Below, piece by piece: positions 19,889-27,689 of a stretch of 27,689 bases of DNA. The first letter of the stretch is position 1; each line of letters opens with the position of its first letter. The notes under the pieces were generated by a model. That model ran no database searches and was not told the origin of the DNA. It saw nothing but the letters and a program-made list of their open reading frames with translations. This DNA is from an uncultured archaeon. Lineage in GTDB: Archaea; Asgardarchaeota; Thorarchaeia; Thorarchaeales; Thorarchaeaceae. The position numbers and the translations under genes were made by a program. The stretch spans positions 1-27,689 of the forward strand of contig CAYHAA010000023.1 in assembly GCA_964354495.1 (NCBI GenBank), in the 5' to 3' direction.

Positions 19889-19937
19889 AATGATGTACGT
19901 GATAGGGATAGAATCGCTAAGATTCTGGAAGATTGAT

Positions 19938-21728
19938 ATGATGACTAGAACGAGAACGCGACTTGGCACGCTCTTTCTGATTTCAAGCCTGCTCGTCCTG
20001 AGCCTTGGAATCAGCACTGCAGCCGCCCCCGTTACTGAGCCTTATGATAGAACCCAGATTGTGAATCCATTCATAGAGATGCTACCGGGTGTCTATGTTG
20101 CATCACAGTGGTGGAACGAGACAGGGGACATGGATACCTCTTATACCGAGCCTGGTTACTTTATTGAAATCAACGGATCCCGGTACATGGCAGAGTACTA
20201 TGTGGAACACACTAACGGTACTGGCTATATCATAACCGAGAATAGCATATCGAATTGGACCTCTGATTGGTCGTTTTCGAATCTTCTTGTTGTCGTAGTC
20301 CTTGATCCCGATGGATCCTATATGGCTTGGACAGCCAATCAAGGCAATGTTAGTGACCTCTGGAGTATCTTCTGGTGGCCTGAGGCAGGTGCACTCACTG
20401 GAGATGAGGTGTTCATCTACTCCTCGTTTTACTATTCCGAGTACAATTCAAGCTCATACTACTATGCTGAATACAGCTGGCGAAACGAGTATGGTGTACC
20501 AGTAGATCCTAACGATGTGATTCCTTACCTGGCCGAGGAATACACATGGGCCTCGTACATGAACGGTACCTACGAGTTCGACTATGACTGGGACTACTGC
20601 GGTTTTGGATATGATGTCAGCGAGATGTTCAAAACAGAAGCTACAGAGGAGTGGATGCAGCACTACTTCTCCGGCCTGAGTGTCTTCAACGACACCAATG
20701 GCAATGGCAGAATGGATCTCGTCTACAGCGAGGTGTCCTACGATTTCGATGAAGACGATATCATCGACTGGACCAACTACGAATTGAACCGGACCGCCTC
20801 AGAACTGGTCTACGACTTCTATGCAGACAATGCAGAAATCGGTGAGATAGGTCTTCCCTCTGTGAACTCCGATGGTCAAGTCGAGTGGAGCGCCGAGGTT
20901 GTCGATATTGATGGCAATCTCATGACATCGCAACCATACGATGTCTGGTTCGGCGGAGTACGACCCGCTGGTGGCATTATTGGTAATATGCCCGAAGAGA
21001 CCGACCCACTGCCTGTCACCATTGACAGTCTAAAGCTCACATTCAAGTTCGAAACTACCGATGATGCTGCAGTGATAAAGATAGACCAGTACGTTGGCGA
21101 CTTCACGAATCCCATCTCCGGACTTGTACCAGCTGAGCTGAATGGACTTGGTCTCACGCTCAACTACTGGAGTTCCTTCTCAAGCTATACGATGACTGGT
21201 GAGATACCTGTGGAGACGCTCCCCGTGACTGGCGGTGAAGTTCCTCCAGCCTCTGGGACAGACCCCGGAACAGTGACCGAATGGGTTGAAGCGCCGTCAG
21301 ATGCTCTGGAGAGCGACAATGCTCCTGATGGATTCCTTCGATTCAGCGAGGCAGACGATCTCCGGACAATAGTTGAGTTTGGCGGCACCTATGTTCTGGG
21401 CAGTGATGGACTGACCTACGATGTTGGCACAGCAGTGATGCCGATGTACTTCTATGGCCTAGCCTGCGAGTCTGATGCAACATCCACTGGCCTGGTTTAT
21501 TCACTCGACTCTTGGTGGGGCCAGACATACTACTATAGCTCGTGCTACGCAAAGTGGGATGGACACTCAATAACCCACGATCCCATCTTCTCAGTCTTCC
21601 CAATGAGGTCTCCATACTCAGCAAGTGCATTCATCACTGGTCTGATTAATTCGGCCATTATTATCGGAGTCCTTGGTGTCGCAGCCATTGTTGTTGTCTG
21701 CGTACGCATAGACGCAGAACGGAAATAA
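19938..21728 (+). CDS. Large acidic cell-surface glycoprotein (signal peptide, C-terminal TM anchor)
   Basis: Signal MMTRTRTRLGTLFLISSLLVLSLGISTAAA. Nine N-x-S/T sequons in the N-terminal half. Dx[DN]xDG-like loops (DTNGNGRMD, DFDEDDIID). C-terminal TM and short charged tail. Start at 19938 preferred over 19890. Confidence 0.85.
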   Translation: MMTRTRTRLGTLFLISSLLVLSLGISTAAAPVTEPYDRTQIVNPFIEMLPGVYVASQWWNETGDMDTSYTEPGYFIEINGSRYMAEYYVEHTNGTGYIITENSISNWTSDWSFSNLLVVVVLDPDGSYMAWTANQGNVSDLWSIFWWPEAGALTGDEVFIYSSFYYSEYNSSSYYYAEYSWRNEYGVPVDPNDVIPYLAEEYTWASYMNGTYEFDYDWDYCGFGYDVSEMFKTEATEEWMQHYFSGLSVFNDTNGNGRMDLVYSEVSYDFDEDDIIDWTNYELNRTASELVYDFYADNAEIGEIGLPSVNSDGQVEWSAEVVDIDGNLMTSQPYDVWFGGVRPAGGIIGNMPEETDPLPVTIDSLKLTFKFETTDDAAVIKIDQYVGDFTNPISGLVPAELNGLGLTLNYWSSFSSYTMTGEIPVETLPVTGGEVPPASGTDPGTVTEWVEAPSDALESDNAPDGFLRFSEADDLRTIVEFGGTYVLGSDGLTYDVGTAVMPMYFYGLACESDATSTGLVYSLDSWWGQTYYYSSCYAKWDGHSITHDPIFSVFPMRSPYSASAFITGLINSAIIIGVLGVAAIVVVCVRIDAERK

Positions 21729-22687: not shown

Positions 22688-23707
22688 TTGGATGCATTGC
22701 CACGCCGCGAAACACTACTTGCAGTAATACTGGTAATTGCCTTGCTGTCAATCACCACTTTTGCCTCCCAGGGCTCTCCCATCCCGCACAACATCCGTCT
22801 GGCATCTTGGCCAGGTGGATTGGTCATCGATCATACCTGTATTGACCTCGATATGATTCCGAGTGAGTGGATAGACTCTGCTCAGGATGACATTCGTGTC
22901 CATTATGCCCATACCAGTCATGGAGGTCAGATAACCGAGGGGCTCTATCTGATTGAATCCGAGAACGCAACATTCGATTGTTCGGTTGGAGATGGAGCTC
23001 TTCCAACTGATTCTGGCGCGCTCTGTATCCTGGACGGAAATCCTCCAGAATCATACATTACACCTGAGTTGTATTGGCACGAAGCAAGCGCTCGGGCTAT
23101 CACTCAAAGCACAATCAACAACAATCCGACATTGACCGTCTCACTCTGGTCCTGGTGTACTCAAGTCGATTCGTACTCAGAAACTGACGTTCAGGAGTAT
23201 CTCGATGCCATGAGTCTTCTTGAGTCTGCAAACCCCGATATCACTTTCATCTACATGACTGGGAACGCCCAGTCGACGAGCGATGGTGGCTATAATCGAT
23301 GGTTGCGCAACGAGCAGATACGGCAGTACTGTCTGGACAATGATAAGATTCTGTTCGACTTTGCAGACCTTGACTGCTGGAGTGATGGCGTGTATAGCAC
23401 CTATGACTTCGTTGTAGGTGAGGAAACACTCAAGATTCCCGTGGAGCACCCAGACTTCAATGGTGACGAGGCTGCTCACACTACCTATACCAGCTGTGAA
23501 CAGAAGGGTAGAGCCTTCTGGTGGCTCATGGCTATGCTCGCAGGCTGGAATGCTCCTGATCCGACCACGACTACCACCCCAACTGGCACATCATCAACTA
23601 TCACGAATACTGGGTCGCTGTTCGCCGGCGATGTTCTTCTCTACGCAGGGGTTGGAGGCGTCATCCTTCTTCTTGGCTACGCTATCATTCGAAGATATCG
23701 CAGCTGA
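22688..23707 (+). CDS. Secreted, membrane-anchored protein of unknown function (possible hydrolase)
   Basis: TTG start behind AGGAG. N-terminal signal/TM, conserved-looking HTSHGGQI, WSWC, IYMTG, RNEQIR and LFDFADLD segments, Thr-rich linker PTTTTTPTGTSST, C-terminal TM plus RRYRS. Confidence 0.8.
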   Translation: MDALPRRETLLAVILVIALLSITTFASQGSPIPHNIRLASWPGGLVIDHTCIDLDMIPSEWIDSAQDDIRVHYAHTSHGGQITEGLYLIESENATFDCSVGDGALPTDSGALCILDGNPPESYITPELYWHEASARAITQSTINNNPTLTVSLWSWCTQVDSYSETDVQEYLDAMSLLESANPDITFIYMTGNAQSTSDGGYNRWLRNEQIRQYCLDNDKILFDFADLDCWSDGVYSTYDFVVGEETLKIPVEHPDFNGDEAAHTTYTSCEQKGRAFWWLMAMLAGWNAPDPTTTTTPTGTSSTITNTGSLFAGDVLLYAGVGGVILLLGYAIIRRYRS

Positions 23708-23766: not shown

Positions 23767-24570
23767 ATGACAGACAATTTCAAGAACTTCCAAATCATAA
23801 ACATCATCGCCGTGGTGTTCACTATTGTGATGAATGCTCTGGCCAACATACTACCCTTTAATGGTGTGAATACAGGAGCGGTTGCAGACTCGTTCCCTAA
23901 CTATTTCACTCCACCGGGTTATGTCTTCTCCATCTGGGGCGCAATCTACATCCTTCTTTTCGTCTTTGCATTCTACCAAGCAAAGAGGAGCCAGGTGAAT
24001 GAAGCATATCTTGGCAAGATTGGCTACCTGTATCTGATAGGTGCAATCCTGAATGTGTCCTGGCTGATTCTGTTCCACTATTCCTATGGAAACACTCCTC
24101 TATTACTGGCGAGTGAGTTCCTGATCGCGGGTTTCTTAGTCGTCCTGCTCCTGACCTATGTCAGACTCGGAATAGGAATCAAAGAGGTTCCTCTGATGCA
24201 GAAGCTGGCAATCCATCTTCCCACGAGTGTATACTTGGGATGGATCTCACTGGCAACTATTGCGAACACCGCAGCGCTTCTTAATGAAAATATGATAATA
24301 GCTGTGGATGTTCAAGTCCTCTGGACAGCCTTGGTCTTGATTGCTGCACTTCTGCTCTCCACCCTGATGATAGTGTTGAGAAGGGACATAGCCTATGGCC
24401 TTGTTGTGATCTGGGCCTCTGTGGGTATTGCATCAAAGTGGGTATCTATTCCACTGATCTCCAATACCGCCATCATCGTTGCAGTCGTTGTTGCACTGCT
24501 CATTCTGATAGTACCCATTATCAGGAAGAAGAACTGGGTCGATTACTACCTCGTTCGAAGACTCGAGTAG
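23767..24570 (+). CDS. TspO/MBR-like tryptophan-rich sensory membrane protein (extended, about 8 TM)
   Basis: FTPPGYVFSIWGAIY TspO-like motif, LNVSWL, YLGWISLATIAN, WA..GIA. AT-rich TATA region at 23727-23748. Confidence 0.8.
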   Translation: MTDNFKNFQIINIIAVVFTIVMNALANILPFNGVNTGAVADSFPNYFTPPGYVFSIWGAIYILLFVFAFYQAKRSQVNEAYLGKIGYLYLIGAILNVSWLILFHYSYGNTPLLLASEFLIAGFLVVLLLTYVRLGIGIKEVPLMQKLAIHLPTSVYLGWISLATIANTAALLNENMIIAVDVQVLWTALVLIAALLLSTLMIVLRRDIAYGLVVIWASVGIASKWVSIPLISNTAIIVAVVVALLILIVPIIRKKNWVDYYLVRRLE

Positions 24571-24617: not shown

Positions 24618-27600
24618 TCAACTTTCATTCTCAACAGACTCAGAGGCTCGAATCAATTCGGAGCCAAACGGAGACTCATCCGTGGTCACAAGAAAATGGT
24701 TCTCCAGTGCAGTCATTATTGCCTTGTAGACTCGTCCCTCCTCTAGACCACATCTTGATATTTCTGAGGCAAGTTCTTCGAGTTTGAACTCGACTCCCTG
24801 CTTTCTGGCAATTCTCTCAAGGGCACATGTGTTGGTGGGCAGTTTCTTGGCCTCATCCAGCTTGTAGGTCCGGAGAAGTGCTCCATCGAGGATATCCTCG
24901 AACAACGTGTCGAATTGTGTCTTTGTATGCCTGTCAAGAACAATAATGGGCACATCATGAAGCGTTTCATCGAAGATGAATGCAACCGTCTTCGCAAATC
25001 GAATCATCCTCTCGCGCTGTTCTGGCGAGGGATTCCCTGTCGTGATGAATGCGCAGACCAGTCTGTTTGTGGAGATCACCCTGACAATATCTGAGATTGG
25101 GATGAGCCCCCATTCCTCAGAGGTCGACTCAATATCGAACTCCCCACGGAAGCTTGTGATTGCAGTGATGAATGCTGAGATTACGGTCTCTTCAAGACCG
25201 GCTCTGAGTATCTTGGAATACACGGGCAGGCCGCTCTCCTTGTGGAGGACAATCACGCCCAGCAGGCTCTTCACATCATCAAAACGCCTCTTCACTGCAA
25301 GAGCCTCTTTATTCTCTCGAATCCGTCTTCTCCTAGCTCTTCTTCTGTATACTAATCCAACACCAACTGCTGCAAGTAAGATTATGAATGGATAGTATCG
25401 GACTGTTGTGACCACGAGCATCGTCAATGCATCTCTTCCCGGCTGGAGCGGAACAGAGTATGCGGACTCTAGGACATAATTCTGAGCATCACAGGTGATT
25501 TGCAGTAGGTATACTCCCTCTGCTGCAGGCATGGATATGACTGTGCTGTACTCTCCAGCAATGCTTGTCTCGTCCATGGGAATTGAATCACCTAGTGCCC
25601 CGTTTGGATCAATGATGTAGCAGAATACCTTTACTCCACTCACAGGTGAGCCTGTGCCTGCTTCAGATAGTTTCACAATAATGGTGCTCTGACTCAACTC
25701 AGGTGCGCTCAGACCCTGCAAGACTTCGACAGTAATCGGTACTCTCTCGACAGTGAATGTCAATCTGTACGACGCCGTTTCAAAACCGGTCCTCTCGAAG
25801 GTCAGAATGACAAAGTGCTCCCCCAGTTCTTGGGGTGTGAGACTCACTGAATACTGCCCAGATCCCAGTTCAAGAACGCTAATCCAGTCAGCGCCCTCAC
25901 CAGACGCAAGAACACTGGCCCCTCGAATATAGCTGCTATTCGACTCGAAGATATAGTTGAAGGTGAATGTGTATGACCGGCCTACCAGGAGTGCCTCAAG
26001 TGGGCTTGCACCTTGAGCTGTTGCATCGATTCTTTCTACCTCGATGAAGAACTGCTTGGTTGCAATCCGAAAATCTGTCTTGTTTGCGACCACTGAGAGT
26101 ACCCATGATCCTATTGCGTTGCCTCGTATCGAAATGATGTAGAATCCAGAGTATTCCACTATTTGTATCTGCAAGTCCATGATATCGGAAGGAAGTGCAG
26201 TGATGTTCGCACCTTGAATCGCTGCAGAAGGACTCATTCGTTCATAGTATACCACCAGTTCATAGGGCTCTCCGAACGCTGCGATTGTTGAGGTGACATC
26301 TCCCTCGAAACGCAGAGATGTCTGAATCTCTGTCACAACAAGAGTGAATCCTGCACTCGAACTCTGATAATTGCTGGCAGTGGCTCTGAAGAGCAAGTCA
26401 AAGGTCCTGATCTCAGCGGATTGAACTGTGATATTGTACAAACCATCGCCGACTGACACAGCTCCTGACACTGTTACACCCGAGGGTGGATTGATCAGCG
26501 CGATGCTTGCGATATCGATTGTATTGAAGCTCTCATCCTGAAACCTCAATTGCAGGGTGAAAGTCTGGTTCATTGCGACTGTCGCACTTGATGGAAGTGA
26601 CGTGAGAATGGTGGGTATTCCACTTGCGGTCAACGTAAAGGTGGCGTATTGTGTTTCATGATTGAGGATGTCTGCCCTGACCACAATCGAGAATGTACCT
26701 GCTGATGCAGGCGTCAGGATTATCTCATAGCATCCTTCAGAGACTAGCGTGAAGTTGCCATAGGAAAGACCTGCCGCTGGCGTCACGGCGATAATCTGCA
26801 GGTTGGCTCCTGAAAGCCCATAACCTGTGCTATTCCGGTACTCCACCACAAGTCTATAGTTGCCTCCAAATATGAGGACATCTGCAGTACCATTCAGTAA
26901 TTCCAACTCACTTCCTGTTTCACCTATAATCAGTGTGAAGGAGTCTGTGGCATCGTAATGGAATGTTTTTGATAGAGTGATAGTGACCTCATATATCTCT
27001 GAGATATTGCAGGCAACATCTAGTGAATACGATCCATTGCCATAATCAGCAAATGATTGCCATGAAAGACCGCCTACTGGACCTGAGAATGTGACTGATA
27101 GTGTAGCTCCTGCCACACCGCTGCCATTCAGAAGTCTGTAGCTCAGTTGGACGCTGAATATCTCATTCAGCCCGGTCTGAATCGGGAGTGAGCCTGCATT
27201 CAGTATTTCTAATGCCGTTTGGAATACTGATATGACTGTGAACTGAGTTGTGACAGTGTCGAAATAGGGCATTGATGCATTCACAACCACAATGAACTGT
27301 CCACTGCCTATCAGAGATGTATCGAAGTCAGCTTCCCACCAGTTCTTGGCATAGTTTTGCGTGAATATGACTGTGGTAGAGGACCAATTCGCCACAATCG
27401 AGACGCTGTCATCTAACAAGTAGTCTCCTGTGTCTACATCTCTGAATGTGATTAGATTGGATATTACTTGACCATAATCTGCCTCTATCAAGGGGTAGTT
27501 AGCCGCTACTGAAGCTTGATGGTAGAGGTCAAAAGGCGCATACCCGTATGCGAGTTCTGTACCATTGTTCCAAAACGCTTCTACTGCCCATTCACCAGCA

Positions 27601-27689
27601 GAGGTGTTTGTCCCCGCGAATACCCATGATGAGCTATTTGCGTGCCCATTTATGATGTTAGATATCGAGTCAGAAGCCCATATTGTTCC
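24618..27689 (-). CDS. Giant single-pass membrane protein: tandem Ig-like repeats, TM, cytoplasmic longin-like and winged-helix-like domains (5' truncated by window edge)
   Basis: The frame stays open from 27491 to 27689 (GTIWASD...FWNNGTE...YP-LIEA). About seven ~95-100-aa beta-sandwich repeats with G.Y.h.h...G.h.h.h.A motifs. TM ending RRRARRRR. Longin-like LLGVIVLHKESGLPVY...ETVISAFITAITSF..EF. Confidence 0.88.
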   Translation of the reverse strand, partial: GTIWASDSISNIINGHANSSSWVFAGTNTSAGEWAVEAFWNNGTELAYGYAPFDLYHQASVAANYPLIEADYGQVISNLITFRDVDTGDYLLDDSVSIVANWSSTTVIFTQNYAKNWWEADFDTSLIGSGQFIVVVNASMPYFDTVTTQFTVISVFQTALEILNAGSLPIQTGLNEIFSVQLSYRLLNGSGVAGATLSVTFSGPVGGLSWQSFADYGNGSYSLDVACNISEIYEVTITLSKTFHYDATDSFTLIIGETGSELELLNGTADVLIFGGNYRLVVEYRNSTGYGLSGANLQIIAVTPAAGLSYGNFTLVSEGCYEIILTPASAGTFSIVVRADILNHETQYATFTLTASGIPTILTSLPSSATVAMNQTFTLQLRFQDESFNTIDIASIALINPPSGVTVSGAVSVGDGLYNITVQSAEIRTFDLLFRATASNYQSSSAGFTLVVTEIQTSLRFEGDVTSTIAAFGEPYELVVYYERMSPSAAIQGANITALPSDIMDLQIQIVEYSGFYIISIRGNAIGSWVLSVVANKTDFRIATKQFFIEVERIDATAQGASPLEALLVGRSYTFTFNYIFESNSSYIRGASVLASGEGADWISVLELGSGQYSVSLTPQELGEHFVILTFERTGFETASYRLTFTVERVPITVEVLQGLSAPELSQSTIIVKLSEAGTGSPVSGVKVFCYIIDPNGALGDSIPMDETSIAGEYSTVISMPAAEGVYLLQITCDAQNYVLESAYSVPLQPGRDALTMLVVTTVRYYPFIILLAAVGVGLVYRRRARRRRIRENKEALAVKRRFDDVKSLLGVIVLHKESGLPVYSKILRAGLEETVISAFITAITSFRGEFDIESTSEEWGLIPISDIVRVISTNRLVCAFITTGNPSPEQRERMIRFAKTVAFIFDETLHDVPIIVLDRHTKTQFDTLFEDILDGALLRTYKLDEAKKLPTNTCALERIARKQGVEFKLEELASEISRCGLEEGRVYKAIMTALENHFLVTTDESPFGSELIRASESVENES

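What the first reader, a model, noticed from the sequence alone, without database searches (positions are those of the whole stretch)
24618..27689. Receptor-like architecture: Ig-repeat ectodomain, single TM, cytoplasmic longin plus winged-helix-like module
Seen: at least seven ~95-100-aa beta-sandwich repeats with many sequons, a TM (about 25346-25421) with an Arg-rich stop-transfer, and a segment (about 24961-25265) with the longin pattern (hydrophobic beta1, SGLPVY, helix ETVISAFITAITSF..E, three strands, C-terminal helix). A further helical domain follows (FKLEELASEISRCGLEEGRVYKAIMTALENHFL). Established: longin domains act as small-GTPase platforms/GEFs in eukaryotic trafficking (MON1/CCZ1, TRAPP, AP sigma/mu) and are expanded in Asgard archaea. 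Inference: a surface adhesin or sensor wired directly to GTPase signalling.
Basis: partly seen in the sequence, partly recalled or inferred. Interest (0 to 1): 0.62.

Follow-up and report, generated by a model that had tools for sequence, protein, structure and literature searches.

The report
Asgard surface glycoprotein with longin tail
This gene of a Thorarchaeota (Asgard) archaeon encodes a large, probably sugar-coated cell-surface protein that crosses the membrane once and ends inside the cell in a longin domain, the fold eukaryotes use to dock small GTPase switches; the layout is real and common in these archaea, but what the tail binds is unknown.

Summary
The architecture is confirmed. 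Window 24618-27689 (-) holds the last 1023 residues of a ~1553-aa type I membrane protein, cut by the contig end; a 93%-identical Thorarchaeota orthologue supplies the signal peptide. It has seven homologous ~100-aa beta repeats, sequons enriched outside and depleted inside, one TM with an Arg-rich stop-transfer, a longin domain (model pLDDT 81; Z 11.6-12.3 to TRAPP/sedlin longins, roadblocks 8.4 or less) and a small winged-helix-like domain (Z 7.3, borderline). The tail is the best-conserved part. The tail profile matches 80/85 genomes of the family; this genome has five copies, and Lokiarchaeota-type relatives have the same layout. 'Wired directly to GTPase signalling' is not shown: GTPase genes are not enriched nearby, and the GAP-longin motifs are absent. 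The helix-1 surface that docks GTPases in Mon1/TRAPP is conserved, so a non-catalytic docking platform is the best reading. I found no paper on this layout. The scan has found it before on other DNA, including two paralogues in this genome.

The parts
24618..27689 (-). C-terminal 1023 codons of a ~1553-aa type I membrane glycoprotein; 5' end cut off by the contig end
   Evidence: ORF; 93.4% identical, gap-free, to residues 531-1553 of P0002 from Thorarchaeota OWC2
27519..27689 (-). C-terminal part of a further beta domain (residues 1-57); weak MG2 hit in the orthologue
   Evidence: P0002 residues 492-568 hit PF01835 at E 0.021
25440..27518 (-). Seven ~100-aa beta-sandwich (Ig-like) repeats, residues 58-750, sequon-rich
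   Evidence: profile-profile matches between units against shuffled controls; weak Invasin_D3/Big_1/Filamin hits; sequon excess
25347..25421 (-). Single transmembrane segment, residues 757-781 (hydrophobic core 766-781)
   Evidence: hydropathy peak 1.86; a hydrophobic stretch at the same place in homologues
25266..25346 (-). Arg-rich stop-transfer and long juxtamembrane helix (782-808) ending in a conserved K-x-R-F-x-D-x-x-N motif
   Evidence: model helix 2-29; D805 98% conserved, R802 85%
24885..25265 (-). [quoted passage not shown]
   Evidence: AlphaFold2 model; Z 12.3 rmsd 2.6 over 125 residues to a TRAPP core chain, 11.6 sedlin, 11.7 Sec22b; conservation
24681..24884 (-). Small winged-helix-like domain (beta, alpha, beta, alpha, alpha, beta), residues 936-1003, without the usual wing hairpin
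   Evidence: model pLDDT 90.5; best match Z 7.3, rmsd 2.4, 69/70 aligned to MibB 191-286, then NisB, RecX, RPC62, MecI, RPA2 winged helices
24578..24607 (+). 11-pair hairpin between this gene and the convergent TspO-like gene; possible terminator
   Evidence: consensus match only

Best explanation
A type I cell-surface glycoprotein of an expanded Thorarchaeota family. A signal peptide sends a rod of Ig-like repeats (plus ~530 N-terminal residues of unassigned beta domains) outside, where AglB glycosylates it; the ectodomain varies in length and sequence and serves adhesion or coat function. Inside, a long helix holds a longin domain under the membrane. Most likely the longin pairs through helix 1 and strand 3 with a second longin (a paralogous tail or a soluble Asgard longin protein) and forms a non-catalytic docking platform for a small GTPase or a longin-fused GTPase; the winged-helix-like domain binds a further protein partner. 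This would tie the position of the surface protein to cytoplasmic GTPase-based sorting or signalling. Shown here: ORF, repeats, topology signals, folds (as predictions), conservation, family range. Inferred: glycosylation, adhesion, dimerisation, GTPase binding, any signal across the membrane.
For: Longin fold with all three helices aligned. Topology: N-terminal signal-like segment in P0002 and most full-length homologues, basic run after the TM; sequons 2.55 per 100 aa outside (shuffled 1.17) and 0.13 inside (shuffled 0.29) in 153 proteins; an STT3/AglB gene is in the genome. The tail is the most constrained part: in the 38 closest homologues median identity is 85% for the tail and 57% for the ectodomain; against the OWC2 orthologue pN is 0.022 in the tail and 0.035-0.061 in six neighbouring genes at similar pS. 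The invariant residues sit in the beta1-beta2 hairpin (G820) and on helix 1 (S838, A/G839, F840, A843, F847, E850), also in the distant Lokiarchaeota-type members. Helix 1 is the dimer and GTPase surface of longins (PMC3747258). In Mon1, G232, G250 and T254 are needed for GEF activity (PMC5216073); G820, A/G839 and A843 have nearly the same spacing (19 and 4 against 18 and 4), which is an inference from spacing, not from a residue-level superposition. The genome has 27 ORFs that match a small-GTPase profile and several soluble longins with the same helix-1 motif.
Against: No genomic link to a GTPase: 1 in 405 kb of flanks against about 3.3 expected; the orthologue is a stand-alone gene between MscL and a TspO-like gene. 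The same helix-1 motif occurs in many Asgard longins, and some of its residues (F840, F847) may simply pack on the sheet. The best fold matches are tied among TRAPP subunits, coat adaptors and SNARE longins, which have different partners, so the fold does not pick a function. No sequence-level match to any solved longin.
Confidence: 0.45

Rival explanations
1. The tail is a GTPase-independent adaptor or scaffold, like AP sigma or SNARE longins: it binds peptides or other proteins to cluster, sort or anchor the surface protein (to vesicle necks, protrusions or the cytoskeleton).
For: AP-3 sigma, zeta/delta-COP, Sec22b and VAMP7 longins score within about 1-2 Z of the best match. The C-terminal domain is closest to peptide-binding winged-helix domains of RiPP enzymes (MibB, NisB, MccB). 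No GTPase neighbours. Related giant ectodomains in this genome carry unrelated helical tails, so tails are interchangeable anchors.
Against: The small-residue helix-1 face and the hairpin glycine are kept across distant lineages, in the pattern of dimer-forming GTPase platforms. The RiPP-domain match is borderline (Z 7.3) and the model lacks the extra strands those domains use (the peptide-binding role is from my own knowledge).
Confidence: 0.27
2. A true ligand-gated receptor: binding outside changes tail dimerisation and switches on GEF or GAP activity towards a small GTPase.
For: Receptor-like layout; paralogues with different ectodomains (about 900-2100 aa) on one conserved tail; tandem paralogue pairs in 5 of 49 loci; longin + winged helix recalls NPRL2/NPRL3.
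Against: The GP motif of GAP longins (PMC12290439) is G-x-P here, and no conserved arginine lies in the short beta4-beta5 loop. The Mon1 lysine after the hairpin glycine is L/I/V, and no SxDxR elbow motif is present. A long rod of Ig repeats has no evident way to relay a conformational signal, and no sensor domain was recognised.
Confidence: 0.15
3. The tail is released by intramembrane proteolysis and its winged helix acts on DNA, as in bacterial one-component membrane regulators.
For: Winged-helix-like fold, with transcription factors among weaker matches (MecI Z 5.2, Fur 4.8).
Against: The domain has no wing hairpin; its conserved residues are hydrophobic or acidic (G981, E984, Y988), with no conserved basic residue; protein-binding winged helices rank above DNA-binding ones.
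Confidence: 0.07
4. The tail is an inert passenger from domain shuffling.
For: Asgard multidomain proteins are extensively shuffled (bioRxiv 10.1101/2020.10.19.343400).
Against: The tail is under stronger constraint than the ectodomain or neighbouring genes, and the fusion is kept in 80/85 genomes of the family and in distant lineages.
Confidence: 0.03

Closest known systems
Eukaryotic longin GTPase platforms (TRAPPC1/C2/C4, Mon1-Ccz1, Fuzzy-Inturned, SRX of SRP receptor alpha)
   Same: Longin fold (Z 9-12); conserved hairpin glycine and small residues on helix 1; an extra helix before strand 1, as in Mon1
   Different: These are soluble or peripheral subunits; none is the cytoplasmic tail of a type I glycoprotein. 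Mon1's lysine and SxDxR elbow motif are missing here; no partner or activity is known.
NPRL2/NPRL3 (GATOR1/SEACIT) and the Asgard 'NPRL2-like longin' proteins of Liu et al. (bioRxiv 10.1101/2020.10.19.343400)
   Same: Longin followed by a winged-helix-like domain; Foldseek aligns 241-251 columns to SEA/GATOR1 chains
   Different: One winged helix here, two or more in NPRL2/3; no GP motif or arginine finger; PF06218 finds nothing in the genome. The paper's text names fusions to two-component domains, not to Ig-repeat ectodomains (its Fig. 5c and tables could not be read).
Longin R-SNAREs (Sec22b, VAMP7, Ykt6)
   Same: Longin domain tethered to a membrane by one anchor; Z 9.4-11.7
   Different: SNAREs are tail-anchored with an N-terminal longin and a SNARE motif; here the longin is C-terminal to the TM, with no SNARE motif and a large ectodomain.
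Asgard adhesin-like surface proteins (e.g. Nerearchaeum fibronectin/Ig-repeat proteins, bioRxiv 10.1101/2025.07.22.663070)
   Same: Signal sequence, beta-sandwich repeat rod, one membrane span
   Different: A cytoplasmic longin tail is not mentioned in the passages read.

Membership tests
Longin domain | [quoted passage not shown] | tested here: met
   Model elements E30-37, E43-48, H55-71, short strand 83-84, E90-94, E98-104, H110-127, H141-154; strand 3 lies in a low-confidence stretch
Longin domain | Structural match to solved longins over the whole domain, above roadblock domains | tested here: met
   Z 11.6-12.3, 120-127 residues aligned; best roadblock Z 8.4
Longin domain | Sequence match to a curated longin profile | tested here: inconclusive
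   No Pfam hit for this protein; one of 69 homologues hits PF19036 at E 0.013; a soluble longin of this genome that passes PF19036 matches the tail profile at probability 91.7
Longin GTPase platform (TRAPP, Mon1-Ccz1 type) | Dimer of two longins through helix 1 and strand 3 | not tested
   Needs the partner; see Tried and rejected for the one modelling job
Longin GTPase platform (TRAPP, Mon1-Ccz1 type) | Small conserved residues on the helix-1 surface and a hairpin glycine | tested here: met
   G820 100%, A/G/S839 100%, A843 100%; correspondence to Mon1 G232/G250/T254 by spacing only
Longin GTPase platform (TRAPP, Mon1-Ccz1 type) | Binds a small GTPase or speeds nucleotide exchange | not testable with these tools
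   Biochemistry needed; gene neighbourhood gives no partner
Mon1/HPS1/Fuzzy catalytic subunit | Lysine after the hairpin glycine and SxDxR elbow motif; three longin domains | tested here: not met
   Position 821 is L/I/V; no such motif between helices 2 and 3; one longin only
GAP longins (NPRL2, FLCN, SMCR8) | GP motif in the beta1-beta2 loop | tested here: not met
   G-x-P, not G-P
GAP longins (NPRL2, FLCN, SMCR8) | Conserved arginine finger | tested here: not met
   beta4-beta5 loop is a short turn, R876 not conserved (N in 49%); the loop position of the finger is from my own knowledge
NPRL2/NPRL3 | Longin followed by two or more winged-helix repeats | tested here: not met
   One winged-helix-like domain, then a 20-residue tail; some distant relatives carry ~90 more residues that were not folded
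Winged helix-turn-helix | Three-helix bundle on a small sheet with a wing hairpin | tested here: inconclusive
   Bundle and sheet present, top matches are winged-helix-type, but best Z 7.3 is within the range of common arrangements and the wing hairpin is absent
Type I single-pass glycoprotein | Signal peptide, one TM, positive-inside run, sequons on the outer side only | tested here: met
   (sequence signals only; signal peptide seen in the orthologue)
Bacterial Ig-like (Big/invasin) repeats | ~100-aa beta-sandwich repeats matching Ig-like profiles | tested here: inconclusive
   Repeats confirmed; Pfam hits below cut-off here, above cut-off in homologues P0238 and P0197; not folded
Longin R-SNARE | N-terminal longin, SNARE coiled-coil motif, C-terminal anchor | tested here: not met
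   Order is ectodomain, TM, longin, winged helix

The most novel reading that the evidence does not exclude
Asgard archaea have a family of single-pass receptors that couple cell contact directly to small-GTPase switching through a cytoplasmic longin dimer (for example the single-copy, class-wide paralogue paired with one of the expanded paralogues), a prokaryotic forerunner of membrane-localised longin GEF platforms.
Probability: 0.17. Interest if true: 0.88.

Novelty: new variant of a known kind. Interest (0 to 1): 0.5.

Why it matters
Asgard longins and small GTPases are known, but the ones tested were not targeted to membranes (PMC10933270), and how they reach the membrane is open. Here a longin is hard-wired to the membrane under a large surface glycoprotein, in nearly every genome of the family and with relatives in other Asgard lineages. 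It gives a concrete candidate for the unexplained surface densities seen on Asgard cells (PMC9834061) and a small soluble construct (residues 782-1003) with which GTPase binding can be tested. If the tail docks a GTPase, it would link the cell surface to eukaryote-like switches before endomembranes existed.

Tried and rejected
Homodimer modelling of the tail (2 copies, 110-row alignment): no answer, score 0.02 against a mark of 0.42; no evidence either way. Sequencing runs: no RNA holder listed. Sequence searches of the tail profile against PDB chains: only chance hits. Pfam on the tail and its homologues: nothing consistent. PF06218 (NPR2) in this genome: no match. Foldseek on the C-terminal domain: no match at E 0.001 or better. 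ESM Atlas: only unnamed archaeal clusters for the tail and leads under 0.9 for the N-terminal part. Search for the missing 5' part of the gene in the assembly: not found. The lead that the tail is a fused form of a soluble adaptor from a surface-protein/longin-GTPase cluster: the best candidate in this genome (C39:1-933) proved to be the cut-off tail of another TM protein of the same layout, with no GTPase gene on that contig. Literature: nine searches gave no paper that describes Ig repeats + TM + longin; the ESCRT survey mentions longin with Ig-like and HTH domains only in Vps28-C proteins; supplements of Liu et al. are not held. In the tree the join of C39 with a Lokiarchaeota-type sequence is between long branches and is not relied on. 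The repeat alignments were gathered by BLAST per unit and may share some rows between units.

Full report
Observation. The stretch 24618-27689 on the minus strand is one open frame of 1023 codons that runs off the end of contig C23, which is the whole window. Its closest relative, P0002 (1553 aa), comes from Candidatus Thorarchaeota OWC2, is 93.4% identical without gaps over residues 531-1553 and has the same downstream genes. So the organism is a Thorarchaeote, and about 530 N-terminal residues, including a signal-peptide-like start, are missing from this assembly.

Ectodomain. Residues 58-750 divide into seven units of 96-102 aa with a recurring G-x-G-x-Y-like motif about every 100 residues. 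Profile comparison gives probabilities of 97.7-99.8 among units 2-6, 80-94 for unit 7 against units 2-6 and 94.6 for unit 1 against unit 2; column-shuffled controls stay below 1. Pfam gives only sub-threshold Ig-type hits here (Invasin_D3 E 7e-5), but homologues pass the cut-off for Big_1, MG2 or YtkA. I did not fold this part, so 'Ig-like' is well supported but not modelled.

Topology. There is one hydrophobic peak (residues 757-781, window 25347-25421) followed by an arginine run. Homologues show an N-terminal hydrophobic segment, a TM just before the tail and a basic run after it. In 153 long homologues sequons occur at 2.55 per 100 residues before the TM (shuffled 1.17) and 0.13 after it (shuffled 0.29), and the genome has an STT3/AglB gene. 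The tail is therefore cytoplasmic by every sequence signal available.

Longin. The AlphaFold2 model of residues 780-1010 (mean pLDDT 80.6) has a long juxtamembrane helix, then strands and helices in longin order. An exhaustive structural search ranks longins first: sedlin Z 11.6 (rmsd 3.3, 127 aligned), AP-3 sigma 11.0, synbindin 10.5, a Lokiarchaeota longin 9.7; roadblock domains reach 8.4. A second look gives Z 12.3 for TRAPP core chains and 11.7 for Sec22b. These scores are tied across functionally different longins.

C-terminal domain. Folded alone, residues 935-1004 give a confident model (pLDDT 90.5) of three helices on a small sheet closed by an N-terminal and a C-terminal strand. Best matches are winged-helix-type domains of RiPP enzymes (MibB Z 7.3, rmsd 2.4, 69 of 70 aligned; NisB 6.7), then RecX, RPC62, MecI and RPA2. 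This supports 'winged-helix-like', with a borderline score and no wing hairpin. Conserved residues are not basic, which argues for protein rather than DNA binding. Longin plus winged helix is the NPRL2/NPRL3 layout, and Foldseek aligns the whole tail loosely to SEA/GATOR1 chains.

Family. The tail profile matches 80 of 85 genomes of the same family, with 1-7 matches each, and more weakly many genomes of other Asgard families (the weak matches may include other longins). This genome has four close copies (C23, a tandem pair on C9, C2) and a fifth, distant one cut by the start of C39, whose orthologues are 1500-2100-aa TM proteins found in all 16 genera, nearly always as a single copy. Distant full-length relatives with the same order of parts are labelled Promethearchaeota in NCBI. 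Ectodomains range from about 900 to 2100 residues. The tail is the conserved part: median identity 85% against 57% for the ectodomain in the 38 closest homologues, and pN 0.022 against 0.035-0.061 in neighbouring genes.

Mechanism. Invariant positions cluster in the beta1-beta2 hairpin (G820, P822, S825) and on helix 1 (S838, A/G839, F840, A843, F847, E850), with D805 just before strand 1. Longin dimers form through helix 1 and strand 3 and bind GTPases on the helix-1 face, mostly as non-catalytic platforms (PMC3747258). The Mon1 residues G232, G250 and T254, needed for GEF activity (PMC5216073), have nearly the spacing of G820, A/G839 and A843. That correspondence is inferred from spacing. 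The catalytic extras are missing: no Mon1 lysine or SxDxR motif, no GP motif or conserved arginine finger of GAP longins. Gene context gives no partner: one small-GTPase gene in 405 kb of flanks, about 3.3 expected, and three distant loci show none. I therefore favour a membrane-anchored, non-catalytic docking platform (0.45) over a GTPase-independent adaptor (0.27), a ligand-gated GEF/GAP receptor (0.15) or a released transcription factor (0.07).

Comparison with what is known. The tail is a longin domain by fold. It is not a member of the Mon1, NPRL2/FLCN or SNARE families by their defining motifs or order of parts. Asgard longins, 'NPRL2-like' longins and their fusions to signalling domains are described, and so are Asgard adhesin-like surface proteins, but nine literature searches found no description of a longin as the tail of an Ig-repeat single-pass protein. 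I could not read the figure and tables of Liu et al., so prior cataloguing is not excluded.

Verdict. A real, widespread and apparently undescribed domain architecture built from known parts: a new variant of a known kind. The scan has noted the same layout before in many genomes and for two paralogues in this one; those notes are not independent support. Function is inferred. Interest 0.5.

Noticed in passing
window 25890-27689 (codons 1-600 of the ORF) against L001: Synonymous divergence from the OWC2 orthologue is 0.094 here but 0.305 in the rest of the gene and 0.25-0.36 in six neighbouring genes (Fisher p 4e-13, breakpoint chosen after seeing the data). This suggests a recent exchange of the ectodomain-coding segment between lineages. 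One pair only.
   Followed up: partly
G000:C39:1-933 (L082): Cut-off tail of a fifth, distant longin-tailed TM protein; orthologues of 1500-2100 aa occur in 66/85 genomes of the family and all 16 genera, nearly always single-copy, unlike the expanded subfamily of the finding. A candidate heterodimer partner.
   Followed up: partly
G000:C2:51112-67553: Two tandem giant surface proteins (2590 and 2897 aa) with related Ig-like repeats and one TM, but with a different, all-helical-looking ~190-aa cytoplasmic tail shared between them and no longin match.
   Followed up: partly
G000:C9:38359-47245 and C2:71203-74703: Three further close paralogues (1695, 1203, 1167 aa); the C9 pair is tandem. Tandem pairs occur in 5 of 49 loci.
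   Followed up: partly
G000:C10:95641-97047, C9:88955-90169, C2:167593-168867: Soluble longin proteins with the same helix-1 motif as the tail; the C2 pair hits PF19036.
   Followed up: partly
P0238, P0240, P0241, P0248, P0250: Distant ~1930-aa relatives (Promethearchaeota where named) carry about 90 further C-terminal residues after the winged-helix-like domain, possibly a second winged helix as in NPRL2/3. Not folded.
   Followed up: no
window 23767-24570 (+): TspO/MBR-like membrane protein gene convergent with the finding, kept next to it in 13 related loci; probably plain synteny.
   Followed up: partly
window 22688-23707 (+) and 19890-21728 (+): Two predicted secreted or membrane-anchored proteins without a clear Pfam family (339 aa with a Thr-rich linker and C-terminal TM; 612 aa with a weak PD40 hit).
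   Followed up: no
L070 (CAYOSZ010000137.1) and P0052: Family members in records labelled Ignavibacteria and Thermoplasmata; most likely misbinned Thorarchaeota contigs.
   Followed up: no
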